A stretch of 62,850 nt of DNA from an uncultured Ruminococcus sp. (lineage in GTDB: Bacteria; Bacillota; Clostridia; Oscillospirales; Ruminococcaceae), in contig CADBTD010000054.1 in NCBI GenBank assembly GCA_902797535.1, forward strand, positions 1 through 62,850. The letters run 5' to 3'. Positions 39,597-44,492 of this stretch are shown piece by piece; the first letter of the stretch is position 1, and the number at the start of each line of letters is the position of its first letter. Both the position numbers and the translations under genes were made by a program. Under the pieces are notes generated by a model. That model had not been told where the DNA came from, made no database searches, and saw only the letters and a program-made list of their open reading frames with translations.

Positions 39597-39851
39597 TCAC
39601 TTAGCAAGGGACTTAGCAAGAGCAGCTTTCTTTCTTGAAGCATTGTTCTTGTGGATGATACCCTTTGCGCAAGCCTTATCGACCTTTTTGATAGCAGCGG
39701 TAACAACCTCAGCCTTATTGTCTGCGTTGTCGGAAACAGCAACAGCTGCCTTCTTCAGTGCAGTCTTAAGATCGCTCTTTACAGCCTTATTTCTGAGAGC
39801 CTTTGCCTCATTGACCTTAACTCTCTTCTTAGCGGACTTGATATTTGCCAT
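39597..39851 (-). CDS. rpsT: 30S ribosomal protein S20
   Basis: [10 protein letters not shown]...[13 protein letters not shown]. Confidence 0.97.
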
Positions 39852-39954
39852 TTAATCTTACCTCCCTTAATAATGAATAAATTCAACTTATTCGTATACA
39901 ATACTGTATGACTGAGAGGGAACATACAGCTATATCTAAACAAGCATCGTGAAT

Positions 39955-39983
39955 ATTATATCACATCATCTTGCGAAATGCAA
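39955..39983 (-). promoter_or_regulatory. Sigma-A promoter for rpsT
   Basis: Minus strand TTGCAT-N17-TATAAT with TG extension. Confidence 0.75.
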
Positions 39984-40054
39984 CCCCTTTTAGCGAGAAA
40001 AAGAAATTTTTTTACAATTATGATTTGTTTATTTTACACAAAAAAGGAGATATA

Positions 40055-40894
40055 ATGGCACTTGATACAGACCTTGCACTGGAATTGTTTACAGACAGTA
40101 AAAAAAGAGTTGCCGATATATGCGGTGCCTCAGCTTATGAATATCGTTATGAACATGCAGAAGCAACTTTAACAGAGATAGATATAAATGATACAGCTGC
40201 TGCGGAGATCATAGGAAGACCTGTGGGAAAGTATATCACGATTGAATTTGATGCGCCGATATATGAATATTCTCCGTTTTATGAAGAAAGATGCGGTATA
40301 GTGACTGAGTCGCTGAAAAAAATATGTCCGGAGACCGGAGCCGTTTTGTTTGCAGGACTCGGAAACAGGTTTATGACCCCTGACTCTATTGGACCTCTTG
40401 CGTCTGACAGAGTGTTTGCTACTGCGCATATTTGCAGATATGCAGATGATATATATACTGACGAACTATCTGAAAGTTTTGTATTGTCAGCAGGTGTGAT
40501 GTCTCAGACCGGTATAGAATCATCTGACCTGATAAAAAGTGTATGTTCAAGTAATGAGATAAAACGTGTTATAGTATGTGATGCACTGGCGTGTCATGAA
40601 CCATCTCATATGGGAAAGACGATACAGCTTTGTTCTACTGGCATATCTCCCGGAAGCGGAGTTGGAAACTCACGTTCAGAGATATCACAAAGCAGTCTTG
40701 GGATACCTGTGGCTGCGATCGGTGTTCCGTCTGTTACAAGACTTATGTCGGATGATCCGAGATTTAAAGAACTGATAGTAACTCCTAAACAGATCGACAA
40801 ACTTGCGGAACGCTCTGCGGCAATGATCTCTGATGCTGTAAATATGTTTTTGCATCCCGGTTTTACTCGTGAAGAGATTGCCTCTTTTATGTGA
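40055..40894 (+). CDS. gpr: Germination protease GPR
   Basis: TDLALE, GKYITIE, GLGN-MTPDSIGP, GVMSQTGIE, DAL, TGISPGSGVGN, AIGVP; divergent from rpsT as usual. Confidence 0.9.
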   Translation: MALDTDLALELFTDSKKRVADICGASAYEYRYEHAEATLTEIDINDTAAAEIIGRPVGKYITIEFDAPIYEYSPFYEERCGIVTESLKKICPETGAVLFAGLGNRFMTPDSIGPLASDRVFATAHICRYADDIYTDELSESFVLSAGVMSQTGIESSDLIKSVCSSNEIKRVIVCDALACHEPSHMGKTIQLCSTGISPGSGVGNSRSEISQSSLGIPVAAIGVPSVTRLMSDDPRFKELIVTPKQIDKLAERSAAMISDAVNMFLHPGFTREEIASFM

Positions 40895-40936: not shown

Positions 40937-40965
40937 TTGACATTATATACTTATTGTGATATAAT
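40937..40965 (+). promoter_or_regulatory. Sigma-A promoter for the DUF5685/J-domain operon
   Basis: TTGACA-N17-TATAAT with TG extension. Confidence 0.85.
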
Positions 40966-41011
40966 TATAGTAAGTATTTATGCGTATTATGCATGACGGG
41001 AGATGACTGCC

Positions 41012-41926
41012 TTGTTTGGATATGTAAGACCGTTTACTCCGTATCTGAGAGTTTATGAAAATGAATTGTATAAAGCAGTCTACTGTGGATTATGCCGTGA
41101 ATTGAAAAACTCATATGGTCATATCCCTACACTTTTGCTGAGTTATGATCTTGCTTTTCTTGCAGCTCTTGAAATAGGTGTAAAGCACGAAACTGTGTCT
41201 GCAGATTCTGTACGCTGTCCTGTTCATCCGATCAGAAAGACCAGATGTCTGAAATGTTCGGGAGACTCACTTCATTATTCTGCTTCTGCAGAAATAATAC
41301 TTGTATACCATAAACTGAAAGATGATCTTGCGGACAAAGGCATAAAGCGGAAAATCAGGGCGGCTGCACTTATACCGCTTTTTTATGGAAAATATAAGAA
41401 AGCTGCTTCCGAATATCCCGCACTTGCGGATTCTGTGGAACTGGCTATGAAACGTCAGCGCATTACAGAAAGAAAAAAAGTAAGATCGCTTGACCGTGCA
41501 GCTGAGCCTACTGCTGCGATAATGAATGCGGTTTTTCGTGAACTGGGCGGATGTGATCCTGATAAACGTGAGCTTTTTGGAAGATTCGGATATATGCTCG
41601 GCAGATATGTTTATATTTGTGATGCGCTCGATGATATCAACGAGGACTATGCTTTAAAAGGATATAATCCGTTGATCCCTTATGATGCGTATAAAGATAA
41701 GTCTCCGAAACTGTCGAGAGAATATCGCCTTAAAGCTGTGGCAAAAGCTCAGAACAGTCTGATGCTGACTCTTGGAGCACTTGCAGAGGTCTATGTTAAT
41801 ATCGATGCGGGAGATATGCGGCCTTTGATAGATAATATAGTGTATCTTGGATTAAAAGATACATTTTCAAAGGTGAGGAGCTTTGCTCTTGATGGTAAAA
41901 GAAAAAGAATGAAAAATGAAAGGTGA
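41012..41926 (+). CDS. DUF5685-like protein with two Asp-rich motifs
   Basis: FGYV...YKAVYCGLC...LSYD...RCPVHP...KLKDDLAD...DALDDINED...YNPL; TTG 41012 fits the GGGAG RBS better than ATG 41003. Confidence 0.78.
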   Translation: MFGYVRPFTPYLRVYENELYKAVYCGLCRELKNSYGHIPTLLLSYDLAFLAALEIGVKHETVSADSVRCPVHPIRKTRCLKCSGDSLHYSASAEIILVYHKLKDDLADKGIKRKIRAAALIPLFYGKYKKAASEYPALADSVELAMKRQRITERKKVRSLDRAAEPTAAIMNAVFRELGGCDPDKRELFGRFGYMLGRYVYICDALDDINEDYALKGYNPLIPYDAYKDKSPKLSREYRLKAVAKAQNSLMLTLGALAEVYVNIDAGDMRPLIDNIVYLGLKDTFSKVRSFALDGKRKRMKNER

Positions 41927-41932
41927 ATGCAA

Positions 41933-42676
41933 ATGAATGACCCTTACAAAACACTCGGAGTACAGCCGAATGCTTCTGAATCAGAGATAAAATCAGCTTA
42001 TAAGACACTTGTAAAAAAATATCATCCCGACAGATACACGGACAGTGATATGGCAGAACTTGCCAACGAAAAGATGACAGAGATCAATGCGGCATATGAC
42101 AGGATAATGGAAGACCGCAGGCAGGGCATATATTATGACTCTTCTCCGTCAGGCAGGAATATGTCGGGAACATATAACTCAAGTAGCTATACTCGTTCCG
42201 GTTCTTCATCCTCGTCGGGCGGAAGCGGTTTCAGTTACGGCAGGACAGGAACATATGATCAGAATTTCAATTATAATTATCAGCAAAGAAATACCAGCTT
42301 TGACGCATATCGTGTACGTCAATTAGCCGATCAGGGCGATATCAACGGTGCTGACAGCATACTTATGGCTGTTACGGAACGATCAAGAAATGCTGAATGG
42401 AATTATCTGAAAGGTATGGTAAGCTATAGAAGAGGCTGGTTCAATGAGGCTTATCATTATACTGCTAAAGCGACTCAGATGGATCCTGCCAATCAGGAGT
42501 ATTCTGCAGCTTTTCAGCAGATGAACCGTCAGCGCAGCGGATATATGACCGGTAATGCATTTACATCAAATGCTCCGTCTGTAAGGGGAACCGATCCGTG
42601 TGATATCATGTCGGGATTATGTGCTGCTGACTGCTGCTGTGAGATGATGGGCGGCGATCTTATCCCATGCTGCTGA
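41933..42676 (+). CDS. J-domain protein with TPR-like region and Cys-rich C-terminus
   Basis: DPYKTLGV...KKYHPD...EINAAYD; S/G/Y linker; AEWNYLKG...DPANQEY; tail CDIMSGLCAADCCCEMMGGDLIPCC. Confidence 0.88.
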   Translation: MNDPYKTLGVQPNASESEIKSAYKTLVKKYHPDRYTDSDMAELANEKMTEINAAYDRIMEDRRQGIYYDSSPSGRNMSGTYNSSSYTRSGSSSSSGGSGFSYGRTGTYDQNFNYNYQQRNTSFDAYRVRQLADQGDINGADSILMAVTERSRNAEWNYLKGMVSYRRGWFNEAYHYTAKATQMDPANQEYSAAFQQMNRQRSGYMTGNAFTSNAPSVRGTDPCDIMSGLCAADCCCEMMGGDLIPCC

Positions 42677-43236
42677 ATAAAAGAGCTTCGGAATGTAAGC
42701 ACTCTAAATCTTTTTGTGTTGCGCTCGGAGGGGTCATAACAGCTCTTGTGCTGCTGATAATGTTCTGTTCAACACTTTTCCCGATGCTTGATTACGCATT
42801 GCCTACATATGCGGGATTTCTTATGGTGATAGTCATGGCTGAGGCGGGTACAGGCTGGGCTTTTATGACTTATGCTGCCTGTGCTGTGCTTTGTATGCTG
42901 ATGACACCTGATTATCAGGCAAATCTGCTGTTTATACTGTTCATGGGATACTATCCGATATTGTATGTACATTTGTTCAAAATAAAGAAAAAGCCTCTGA
43001 GGGTATTTGTAAAGCTTATAGTGTTCAATACTGCTATAATCGTATTCGGACTGATATATACATATTTGTTTGCCGGAACAGACCTGTTTGAAGGTATGGA
43101 AAAGTTCGGGATGTATGCGGTCCCGCTGATGATATTTATGGCAAATGTATTTTTTGGGATCTATGAGGTCCTTCTGGGAAGGCTTATTGAACTATACACC
43201 AGATGGTTTAGAATAAAAATACTAAGTAGAAAATGA
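42667..43236 (+). CDS. Hypothetical polytopic membrane protein (ECF S component/DUF2232-like pattern)
   Basis: About 6 hydrophobic segments, VALGGVITAL, FMGYYPIL; overlaps J-domain gene stop. Confidence 0.7.
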   Translation: MLLNKRASECKHSKSFCVALGGVITALVLLIMFCSTLFPMLDYALPTYAGFLMVIVMAEAGTGWAFMTYAACAVLCMLMTPDYQANLLFILFMGYYPILYVHLFKIKKKPLRVFVKLIVFNTAIIVFGLIYTYLFAGTDLFEGMEKFGMYAVPLMIFMANVFFGIYEVLLGRLIELYTRWFRIKILSRK

Positions 43237-43298
43237 GAATAAAGAACTGGTAAAAAAAGACACAGAATATTTTTGACAACAAAGAAAAGTGGGATAAA

Positions 43299-44072
43299 AT
43301 GAAAGAGAAGAGATCACTGTTTAAAAGGGAAGAGCTTACACCCGAACAAACAGCTAAACGGGATAAAAATCGGCGTATAATAAGGATCATCAGTGCTGTA
43401 TTTTTTCTTGTGGCTATGGCGGGAATGACATATCTGCTGCTTCCTTTGTTTCAAGGAATAGGAAAAGAAGGGTACTTTGAAAAAGTTCAGGAAACAATAA
43501 CGAGCAGAGGTACCTTTCGTGGATTGATACTGTTCCTTGCGCTTCAGGCTTTACAGGTAGTTGTAGCGATAATTCCTGCTATCCAGATAGTCGGCGGACT
43601 GTTATATGGCTGGTTTATCGGCGGCCTTCTTTCGTTTGCCGGGATATTACTCGGGACTCTTGCAGTGTGGGGCATAGTCAAGCTGCTCGGAGCGCCGCTT
43701 GTTGAGGCGGTCGTAAGTGAAAAACATCTGAAAAGGTTCAGCTTTCTCGATGATGAAAAACGACTGATACTTATATTGATCATATTGTATATCATTCCGG
43801 GCGTTCCTAAGGATGTTATCACTTATCTTGTCCCGCTTACCAAAATCAAACTCCGTGATTTTATGCTGTATGTAATGCCGTTCAGACTTCCAGCGATTTT
43901 CCTGTCGTCTGCCTTTGGCTTCAATATTACTGAAGGCAATTATACTGCTGCGATATTTGTTGTGGTTATTATAGCTTTGATAGCTTGTGCAGGATTTTTT
44001 TTCAAGGATAAGGTACTTGACTATTTAAGCAAAAGGCATAAAAGGAGCAGACTGCACAAAAGCGACAAATGA
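43299..44072 (+). CDS. TVP38/TMEM64 (DedA/VTT) family membrane protein
   Basis: LQVVVAIIP, GGLLYGWFIG, IPGVPKDVITY, RLP. Confidence 0.85.
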   Translation: MKEKRSLFKREELTPEQTAKRDKNRRIIRIISAVFFLVAMAGMTYLLLPLFQGIGKEGYFEKVQETITSRGTFRGLILFLALQALQVVVAIIPAIQIVGGLLYGWFIGGLLSFAGILLGTLAVWGIVKLLGAPLVEAVVSEKHLKRFSFLDDEKRLILILIILYIIPGVPKDVITYLVPLTKIKLRDFMLYVMPFRLPAIFLSSAFGFNITEGNYTAAIFVVVIIALIACAGFFFKDKVLDYLSKRHKRSRLHKSDK

Positions 44073-44126: not shown

Positions 44127-44155
44127 TTGACAGAGATAAAATGTTATGATATAAT
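44127..44155 (+). promoter_or_regulatory. Sigma-A promoter for tRNA cluster
   Basis: TTGACA-N17-TATAAT with TG extension. Confidence 0.85.
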
Positions 44156-44197
44156 ATATTACGTTGATTGAGCCAATAACCTCAAGAAACGTGATAT

Positions 44198-44268
44198 GCG
44201 GGTGTAGTTCAATGGTAGAACTCCAGCCTTCCAAGCTGGCCACGTGAGTTCGATTCTCATCACCCGCT
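44198..44268 (+). tRNA. tRNA-Gly(TCC)
   Basis: Acceptor GCGGGTG/CACCCGC, anticodon arm CCAGC-CTTCCAA-GCTGG, T-loop GTTCGATTC; CCA not encoded. Confidence 0.95.
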
Positions 44269-44301
44269 CTCTTTTTGCCGAGATTTCGGTAAAAGTTATA
44301 T

Positions 44302-44379
44302 GGTGGGTATAGCGTAGCTGGTTAACGCGTCAGTTTGTGGCACTGAAGACCGAGAGTTCGAATCTCTCTACCCACCCCA
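44302..44379 (+). tRNA. tRNA-His(GTG)
   Basis: G-1 plus GTGGGTA/TACCCAC, anticodon arm TCAGT-TTGTGGC-ACTGA, GTTCGAATC, encoded CCA. Confidence 0.95.
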
Positions 44380-44380
44380 T

Positions 44381-44454
44381 GCGTTTGTAGCTCAGCTGGA
44401 TAGAGCAACTGCCTTCTAAGCAGTAGGCCCGGGGTTCGAGTCCCTGCAAGCGCG
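44381..44454 (+). tRNA. tRNA-Arg(TCT)
   Basis: GCGTTTG/CAAGCGC, anticodon arm ACTGC-CTTCTAA-GCAGT, GTTCGAGTC. Confidence 0.95.
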
Positions 44455-44460
44455 CTTGAG

Positions 44461-44492
44461 ATCCTGTTGCAATATCTGCAGCAGGATTTTTT
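44461..44492 (+). terminator. Terminator after tRNAs
   Basis: ATCCTGTTGCA/TGCAGCAGGAT followed by T run. Confidence 0.8.

What the first reader, a model, noticed from the sequence alone, without database searches (positions are those of the whole stretch)
40937..44072. DUF5685-like protein with isoprenoid-synthase-like motifs coupled to a cysteine-string J-domain protein: candidate bacterial protein-lipidation module
Seen: one consensus promoter precedes a tightly coupled run of DUF5685-like, J-domain and membrane genes, followed by a DedA/TVP38 gene. The first protein has two Asp-rich motifs in helical context, KLKDDLAD and FGYMLGRYVYICDALDDINED. The J protein keeps HPD and ends CDIMSGLCAADCCCEMMGGDLIPCC (7 Cys in 25 aa, terminal CC). 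Established: paired DDxxD-type motifs mark class I isoprenoid synthase folds, including the peptide prenyltransferase ComQ; eukaryotic cysteine string protein is a J-protein lipidated on a Cys run; Rab CC termini are geranylgeranylated; some DedA proteins flip polyprenyl phosphates. Inference: the enzyme may prenylate the Cys tail and anchor a DnaK co-chaperone at the membrane. Metal binding by the tail is the main alternative.
Basis: partly seen in the sequence, partly recalled or inferred. Interest (0 to 1): 0.8.

Follow-up and report, generated by a model that had tools for sequence, protein, structure and literature searches.

The report
Prenyl-enzyme fold paired with cysteine tail
This bacterial operon encodes an uncharacterised protein predicted to have the fold of isoprenoid (prenyl) enzymes, which in nearly all related genomes examined comes with a cysteine-rich tail on a partner protein or fused to itself, and it likely attaches a lipid to that tail, a modification that remains untested here.

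Summary
DUF5685 folds confidently (pLDDT 94.5) as a class I isoprenoid synthase (Z 18.4). Five Asp and three Cys are 99-100% conserved in 143 homologues. It lacks the chain-elongation loop. The constant partner is the Cys tail, not the J-domain: next gene in 99 of 109 Bacillota loci, fused in 59 of 59 complete actinomycete-type proteins. HPD is lost in 23 of 75 close relatives. Results not seen in my four look-ups of earlier findings: (1) enzyme and TPR region are predicted to bind (ipSAE 0.85, best control 0.01), though the tail itself is not placed; (2) in 12 genomes from three classes, DUF5685 lies beside a polyprenyl synthase (an extra copy in the 4 genomes checked), sometimes with Hsp70 and GrpE; (3) gene 3 weakly resembles an ECF S-component. 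Best reading: S-prenylation of the tail (0.45). Main rival: a metal-binding tail (0.3). Nothing is shown biochemically.

The parts
40937..40965 (+). Perfect sigma-70/sigma-A type promoter with TG before the -10 box
   Evidence: kept in 57 of 77 close relatives
41012..41926 (+). DUF5685 protein with a predicted class I isoprenoid-synthase fold. The conserved MFG start is at 41012; the longest ORF starts at 41003 and gives the residue numbers used here.
   Evidence: Pfam E 4e-70; AF2 pLDDT 94.5, pTM 0.92; VIA Z 18.4, rmsd 3.3, 259 aligned
41084..41095 (+). C28-x-x-C31, part of an invariant three-Cys set (inferred metal site)
   Evidence: 143 of 143 homologues
41216..41218 (+). C72, the third invariant Cys, on the inserted beta-hairpin
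41312..41335 (+). First Asp motif, K104-x-x-D107-x-x-x-D111, at the end of helix 89-110
   Evidence: D107 100%, D111 99%
41621..41647 (+). Second Asp motif, D207-x-x-x-D211-x-x-x-D215, aligned to the SARM of polyprenyl synthases
   Evidence: hhalign E 0.0011, probability 20%
41927..42676 (+). Class C J-domain protein: J-domain, G/S/Y-rich linker, TPR, Cys tail (likely start 41933)
42023..42031 (+). HPD motif
   Evidence: sequence; kept in 22 of 24 phylum-wide and 52 of 75 close partners
42422..42562 (+). TPR motif RGWFNEAY and linker RSGYMTG, the predicted docking surface on DUF5685
   Evidence: ipSAE 0.85, best control 0.01
42599..42673 (+). Cys-rich tail, 7 Cys in 25 residues, terminal CC
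   Evidence: sequence; family survey
42667..43236 (+). Small polytopic membrane protein, DUF2232-like, weakly ECF S-component-like
   Evidence: third gene in 73 of 75 close and 13 of 24 phylum-wide loci; RibU Z 9.3, rmsd 3.9-4.3, 150-156 aligned; Foldseek E 0.11
43273..43300 (+). Separate promoter-like site (11 of 12) before dedA
43299..44072 (+). DedA/VTT membrane protein; an accessory neighbour, not core
   Evidence: near the gene in 33 of 63 close loci

Best explanation
DUF5685 is predicted to be a class I isoprenoid-synthase-fold enzyme that likely ionises an allylic prenyl diphosphate at its two conserved Asp motifs and would transfer the chain to cysteine thiols of a Cys-rich tail, a tail that is carried by the neighbouring TPR/J protein or fused to the enzyme itself. 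Shown: the conserved residues, the linkage to the tail in cis or trans, and the linked prenyl-synthase subfamily in three classes. Predicted: the fold, and docking of the TPR and linker on the enzyme, which would hold the tail close. Inferred: Mg/diphosphate binding by D107/D111 and D207/D211/D215; a metal site at C28/C31/C72 that could activate a thiol, as Zn does in eukaryotic prenyltransferases; lipid anchoring beside the S-component-like membrane protein; and DnaK recruitment only in lineages that keep HPD.
For: Fold: all 50 listed VIA rows are isoprenoid-pathway enzymes, best Z 18.4; Foldseek best E 1.8e-4 to a GGPP synthase. Catalytic-type conservation in 143 sequences from four groups. 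No RRG loop after motif 1 and PT in place of KT, so it is unlikely to elongate chains. Tail linkage: 24 of 29 phylum-wide and 75 of 80 close loci, 29 of 30 in genus g7, fused in 13 proteins and in 59 of 59 complete actinomycete-type ORFs. In the same 301 genomes, all 27 with strong TPR-tail hits (E <= 1.4e-18) are among the 37 DUF5685 genomes. Complex: ipSAE 0.85 against a best control of 0.01; the mark was reached by 116 of 157 solved and 2 of 215 mismatched pairs, counts that hold only roughly here; runs share at least 45% of contacts; partner pLDDT at least 68. Conserved interface columns are lost in fused forms 4 of 6 times, against 8 of 43 elsewhere. A PF00348-type gene lies within about 6 kb in 12 genomes of families f72 (7 of 7), f13 (2 of 2 with an intact DUF5685) and f93 (3 of 3). 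It is an extra copy in the 4 of these genomes checked. Its subfamily was found in 6 of 401 genomes, each beside DUF5685.
Against: The tail (partner residues after 212) has no confident contacts in the complex. Actinomycete-type tails are acidic, hold 5-25 Cys and almost no hydrophobic residues (median 1 in 30), which fits metal binding better. No fixed terminal motif is kept. A review states that all characterised trans-IDS-like prenyltransferases modify Trp (PMC13290415). Most DUF5685 genomes, this one included, have no linked prenyl synthase. The linked synthases are one subfamily with an altered second motif (NDxNN), so they count as roughly one event and could be the transferase themselves; 5 of the 6 hits were in the query alignment. 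The interface co-variation is confounded, because the TPR-partner enzymes form one clade. The position of the three Cys relative to the active site could not be measured.
Confidence: 0.45

Rival explanations
1. The Cys tail is a metal or Fe-S binding module (cofactor donor, sensor or buffer) for the enzyme, which acts on a small-molecule prenyl diphosphate. The three invariant Cys and the tail share or exchange metal.
For: The tail is fused to the enzyme in two lineages, which suits a per-enzyme cofactor. Actinomycete tails are CCD/CxC repeats of variable length. Only three Cys are invariant, leaving an open ligand position. Plant CYSTM-type Cys tails are tied to metal tolerance (PMC10840359, abstract and introduction).
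Against: Clostridial tails are hydrophobic (median 6-7.5 of 30 residues) with conserved spacing. The fused family P0270-P0282 ends in CxC or CCx in 13 of 13, above truncation and shuffle controls, though these are close kin. No metal-transport gene was noticed as a conserved neighbour; gene 3 resembles vitamin S-components only weakly.
Confidence: 0.3
2. DUF5685 makes or breaks down a membrane isoprenoid (a squalene/phytoene-type condensation or a prenyl-diphosphate phosphatase). The TPR/J protein is its dedicated chaperone adaptor, and its tail is a membrane-seeking or acylated anchor that DUF5685 does not modify.
For: The DxxxD + DxxxDxxxD spacing is the head-to-head type (the CrtM/SQS spacing is recalled). 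YisP, SQS and CrtM match at Z about 12. Linked Hsp70 and GrpE in f72 and G057. DedA is often nearby.
Against: Trans-prenyl synthases score about 6 Z units higher. SQS_PSY matched 1 of 69 members at E 0.18. This reading does not explain why the tail stays when the J-domain and TPR are gone.
Confidence: 0.17
3. DUF5685 does not use isoprenoids. It has kept the fold and Mg site for another diphosphate-releasing transfer, such as nucleotidylation or another thiol modification of the tail.
For: Identity to solved prenyl enzymes is only 7-16%. There is no sequence-level match to any PDB chain. Actinomycete copies have no prenyl synthase within the fetched flanks.
Against: A dedicated extra polyprenyl synthase lies beside the gene in three classes.
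Confidence: 0.08

Closest known systems
trans-IDS-like peptide prenyltransferases: ComQ/ComX, PalQ, ChrPC P domain, Ord1 (PMC13290415, section 2.4 read in large part)
   Same: Isoprenoid-synthase fold (Ord1 Z 14.2, MoeN5 Z 15.6); two Asp motifs; encoded beside a candidate peptide substrate
   Different: All characterised members modify Trp and keep a Gln before the second motif. DUF5685 has Tyr/His there, adds three invariant Cys, and its partner is a Cys tail on a TPR/J protein or on itself.
Trans-isoprenyl diphosphate synthases (PF00348: IspA, IspB, GGPPS)
   Same: Best structural matches, Z 18.4, rmsd 3.3, 259 aligned
   Different: No PF00348 hit, no RRG loop after motif 1, PT in place of KT, and no second Asp in either motif family-wide
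Squalene/phytoene synthases, CrtM, YisP (PF00494)
   Same: Motif spacing DxxxD and DxxxDxxxD (reference spacing recalled); Z about 12
   Different: Lower structural score; no Pfam match; extra N-terminal Cys site and hairpin
Eukaryotic FTase/GGTase-II with Rab escort protein (PMC13290415, section 2.2 read)
   Same: Works like it, if the hypothesis holds: an adaptor presents a Cys terminus and a metal activates the thiol
   Different: Different fold (the alpha/alpha barrel is recalled); terminal CC/CxC is not fixed in this family
Cysteine string protein (DNAJC5; recalled) and CYSTM/CYSPD proteins (PMC10840359, abstract and start of introduction)
   Same: J-domain plus Cys run; low-complexity linker followed by a hydrophobic C-terminal Cys segment
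   Different: Those are palmitoylated by eukaryotic acyltransferases. Here a TPR intervenes, the J-domain is dispensable, and 38 tails gave no CYSTM match in Pfam.

Membership tests
DUF5685 (PF18937) | Profile match over the curated cut-off, full length | tested here: met
   236.8 bits against a cut-off of 26.7, positions 1-271 of 272
Class I isoprenoid synthase superfamily | All-alpha terpenoid-synthase fold | tested here: met
   Model pLDDT 94.5; VIA Z 18.4, rmsd 3.3, 259 aligned; Foldseek E 1.8e-4. Predicted model, not a solved structure.
Class I isoprenoid synthase superfamily | Two conserved Asp motifs at helix ends | tested here: met
   D107/D111 at the end of helix 89-110 and D207/D211/D215 at the end of helix 186-210; 99-100% in 143 sequences
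Class I isoprenoid synthase superfamily | The motifs face one cavity and bind Mg/diphosphate | tested here: inconclusive
   No coordinates were returned. Motif 2 aligns to the SARM at E 0.0011, probability 20%; motif 1 was not covered by that alignment.
Chain-elongating trans-IDS (PF00348) | FARM followed by the RRG loop; KT motif; PF00348 match | tested here: not met
   DDLADKGIKR and EPTA in DUF5685 against DDxxDxDxxRRG and GKTA in the synthases; PF00348 is not among the 25 of 27 families shown for 69 members
ComQ/PalQ-type Trp prenyltransferases | Gln just upstream of the second motif | tested here: not met
   Y204 (His in actinomycete types) aligns to that Gln
ComQ/PalQ-type Trp prenyltransferases | Conserved acceptor Trp in the cognate peptide | tested here: not met
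   No Trp in this tail; present in only some lineages
ComQ/PalQ-type Trp prenyltransferases | Prenyl transfer to a peptide | not testable with these tools
   Needs an assay
Eukaryotic protein prenyltransferases (FTase, GGTase) | Fixed CaaX, CC or CxC terminus on the substrate | tested here: not met
   Terminal CC in 10 of 24 phylum-wide and 62 of 75 close tails; actinomycete CC/CxC ends 30 of 52 against up to 32 in truncation controls
Eukaryotic protein prenyltransferases (FTase, GGTase) | Active-site Zn that activates the thiol | tested here: inconclusive
   Three invariant Cys. Zn rode along but ligand contacts are not reported.
Class C J-domain proteins | J-domain with HPD, without class A/B C-terminal domains | tested here: met
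   PF00226 E 2e-15, HPD at residues 33-35, no DnaJ_C hit; the canonical DnaJ lies on another contig
Cysteine string protein / CYSTM | Sequence match to the eukaryotic Cys module | tested here: inconclusive
   No CYSTM hit in 38 tails at E <= 1. Short queries are insensitive, and I did not confirm that the model is in this Pfam copy.
Cysteine string protein / CYSTM | S-acylation of the Cys run | not testable with these tools
   Needs mass spectrometry
ECF S-components (gene 3) | S-component fold | tested here: inconclusive
   RibU tops both searches, but Z 9.3 is under the level trusted for helical bundles and Foldseek E is 0.11
Metallothionein-like tails | Multi-metal thiolate binding | not testable with these tools
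   Composition only

The most novel reading that the evidence does not exclude
Bacteria have their own protein S-prenylation system, unrelated to FTase/GGTase. A class I isoprenoid-synthase fold has gained a three-Cys metal site to activate thiols. It uses a TPR adaptor as an escort, or its own fused tail, and in some lineages comes with a dedicated prenyl-diphosphate synthase and a private Hsp70/GrpE set. It would anchor a cysteine-string J-protein at the membrane, converging on eukaryotic Rab and CSP lipidation.
Probability: 0.35. Interest if true: 0.92.

Novelty: new variant of a known kind. Interest (0 to 1): 0.72.

Why it matters
The module is in 37 of 301 sampled Bacillota genomes and in actinomycetes, and carries a strong vegetative-type promoter. 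It is essentially absent from the searched literature: 'DUF5685' gave one passing mention and 'PF18937' none. If the enzyme prenylates cysteines, it would be a bacterial counterpart of a modification that the cited review assigns to eukaryotic enzymes, and a new lipidation tool. If the tail binds metal, it is an undescribed metallo-isoprenoid enzyme. The fused single-chain forms and the operons with a linked prenyl synthase make either reading testable with one or two purified proteins.

Tried and rejected
Sequence search of the PDB with alignment A1 found nothing under E 0.4. NCBIfam has no model for DUF5685 or gene 3. The ESM Atlas gave only unnamed Bacteroidota clusters at 0.8. A search for long fusions (659-2000 aa) found none, which is weak evidence. 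Phage-collection hits are 4 unannotated gut contigs, not followed. The first metagenome scan found nothing. A viral scan for the linked synthase found nothing. only redrew Bacillota genomes already seen and is not counted. The Rab-type terminus as a family feature was rejected. DedA as a core member was rejected; a DedA-looking gene in L153 gave no Pfam hit. A link to the upstream germination protease gene was rejected: it is near DUF5685 in only 1 of 80 close loci. In four gut RNA libraries, contigs cover parts of all four genes and none covers 40013-40867; contigs cannot show strand or level, so this is a weak hint of vegetative expression. Neighbour clustering of 77 actinomycete-type loci was swamped by shadow ORFs; it showed no conserved partner and no prenyl synthase. 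The tree is a quick one with an unresolved backbone. Literature searches without a relevant result. A recalled 'DnaJ with C-terminal Zn finger' annotation was not found. Subscription journals are mostly not covered, and no supplements were read.
Full report
Observation. The four ORFs, both Asp-rich stretches, the HPD and the 7-Cys tail are present as described. Genes 1-3 abut or overlap. The promoter at 40937-40965 is a perfect consensus: 3 in the window against 0.04 expected. A site of at least 11/12 precedes DUF5685 in 57 of 77 close relatives. DedA has its own 11/12 site and lies near the gene in only 33 of 63 close loci with enough flank, so the core is three genes. The closest named relatives carry Ruminococcus or Oscillospiraceae labels.

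The enzyme. AlphaFold2 on a 79-sequence alignment gave pLDDT 94.5 and pTM 0.92. A search of 48,161 solved chains listed only isoprenoid-pathway enzymes in its 50 rows. Trans-prenyl synthases lead (Z 18.4, rmsd 3.3, 259 aligned), followed by MoeN5 (15.6), Ord1 (14.2) and YisP/SQS/CrtM (about 12). Foldseek agrees weakly (best E 1.8e-4). I aligned 143 homologues from four groups: 69 clostridial, 13 fused, 8 divergent Bacillota and 53 actinomycete-type. C28, C31, C72, D107, E156, D207 and D211 are invariant; D111, D215 and N222 are 99% conserved; D108 and D210 are not kept. The motifs are therefore DxxxD and DxxxDxxxD. The RRG loop and KT motif of chain-elongating synthases are missing. The Gln that marks Trp prenyltransferases is replaced by Tyr or His (PMC13290415, passages and most of section 2 read). 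It looks like an active class I enzyme that is neither an IspA nor a ComQ, with an added three-Cys site whose position I could not measure.

The partner. In 29 phylum-wide loci (own locus left out), 24 have a Cys-tailed gene directly downstream. Two end at a contig edge, one has the tail fused, one has it about 4 kb away, and one (G115) has only a short-tailed paralogue elsewhere. In 80 close loci, 75 have the tail gene, 4 have no complete downstream ORF and 1 has a tail-less ORF that I did not examine. In genus g7, 29 of 30 tail genes have DUF5685 directly upstream and the other is at a contig edge. In the same 301 genomes, DUF5685 is in 37. All 27 genomes with strong TPR-tail hits and the 3 with tail-only hits are among them; the other genomes gave only weak hits (E >= 1e-9), mostly over the TPR part. 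The J-domain is optional: HPD is kept in 22 of 24 and 52 of 75 partners, and several partners are TPR plus tail only. The tail is fused to the enzyme in 13 proteins, in Nonomuraea and Nocardia records, and in 59 of 59 complete ORFs among 77 actinomycete-type metagenome loci, 18 of which are cut by contig ends. The indispensable partner is therefore the tail.

Predicted complex. Enzyme (residues 4-298) with partner residues 123-249, plus Zn and Mg, scored ipSAE 0.85 against a best control of 0.01. The mark was reached by 116 of 157 solved and 2 of 215 mismatched pairs; these counts hold only roughly with my alignments and ligands. The runs agree in at least 45% of contacts and partner pLDDT is at least 68. 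The confident interface joins the conserved RGWFNEAY and RSGYMTG segments to D164, helix 251-265 and DNIVYLGL. The tail itself is not placed. Of enzyme columns conserved in the clostridial group, 4 of 6 at the interface are lost in both fused groups, against 8 of 43 elsewhere (Fisher p 0.026). That group is one clade (support 98, quick tree), so this is suggestive only.

Genomic link to prenyl diphosphate. In family f72, 7 of 7 DUF5685 genomes have a converging operon with a polyprenyl-synthase-like gene and a DUF2232-like gene. Where the contig reaches, it also holds two Hsp70, a J-like gene, GrpE and a short Cys-tailed ORF. For G305 and G308 the synthase was recognised from the printed ORF ends only. 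Family f13 shows a similar block in both genomes with an intact DUF5685; in G208 the synthase has an internal stop and no Hsp70 was seen. In f93, 3 of 3 genomes have fused DUF5685, a small membrane gene, a synthase and an A24-peptidase-like gene. The synthase is an extra copy in the four genomes checked, and this window's genome has only one unlinked synthase. The linked enzymes are one subfamily with FARM and RRG intact, NDxNN as second motif and a terminal WFW. It was found in 6 of 401 genomes at my threshold of 1e-62, each beside DUF5685, 5 of them in the query alignment. This ties DUF5685 to prenyl chemistry, but it is a minority arrangement and not three independent events.

Gene 3 follows the tail gene in 73 of 75 close and 13 of 24 phylum-wide loci. 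Five of the other 11 phylum-wide loci have a zinc-ribbon-type membrane gene there instead. Its model (pLDDT 89.2) matches riboflavin S-components first in both searches, at a weak level (Z 9.3; E 0.11).

Against lipidation. The terminal CC that suggested Rab is lineage-specific, and actinomycete CxC ends are what their repeats give anyway. Those tails are acidic, with 5-25 Cys. All characterised enzymes of this fold that modify peptides act on Trp, and Cys prenylation is described for Zn-dependent eukaryotic enzymes (PMC13290415). CYSTM tails offer precedent for both acylation and metal handling (PMC10840359, abstract and start of introduction).

Literature. 'DUF5685' occurs in one paper as a list entry (PMC9403866, passage read), and 'PF18937' in none. 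A J-protein survey (10.1101/2022.02.28.482344, passages read) showed no mention of this architecture in the passages returned. Most subscription journals and all supplements were not seen.

Verdict. This is a real, widespread and unstudied module, already noted by this scan in other genomes. It works most plausibly like an escort-assisted Cys prenyltransferase built on a ComQ-like fold (0.45), and it is not a member of ComQ, IspA or FTase. A metal-binding tail serving an isoprenoid enzyme is the serious rival (0.3).

Noticed in passing
L143:1303-2307, L146:1399-2427, L148:1399-2343: A polyprenyl-synthase subfamily with NDxNN as second motif, GE for GQ, no Lys in GKxxR and a terminal WFW, found only beside DUF5685 in 401 genomes. 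It may be a special donor synthase or itself a transferase.
   Followed up: partly
L121:7467-12293: Two lid-less Hsp70 genes (about 510 aa), GrpE, a protein ending in a J-like HPD segment and a short Cys-tailed ORF form a private chaperone operon next to DUF5685.
   Followed up: partly
L157:4865-5374: Many g7 genomes carry a second, unlinked J/TPR paralogue. The one read has a degenerate HPD and a tail cut to two Cys, ending in Cys.
   Followed up: partly
L123:10054-10488: An A24-peptidase-like membrane gene follows the linked synthase in all three f93 genomes; a possible tail-processing step, untested.
   Followed up: partly
L001:1079-1489: A zinc-ribbon membrane protein replaces gene 3 in one subgroup whose tails do not end in CC.
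   Followed up: partly
control set: Thermotoga maritima carries a DUF5685 match over the cut-off, a tractable host for biochemistry; its context was not retrievable.
   Followed up: no
window 44127-44455: A perfect promoter drives tRNA-Gly(TCC), tRNA-His and tRNA-Arg(TCT), followed by a terminator-like hairpin at 44458-44490.
   Followed up: yes
window 39597-40894: An rpsT-like gene (named from recall) lies divergent from a GPR germination protease gene; this is local synteny, not part of the module.
   Followed up: partly
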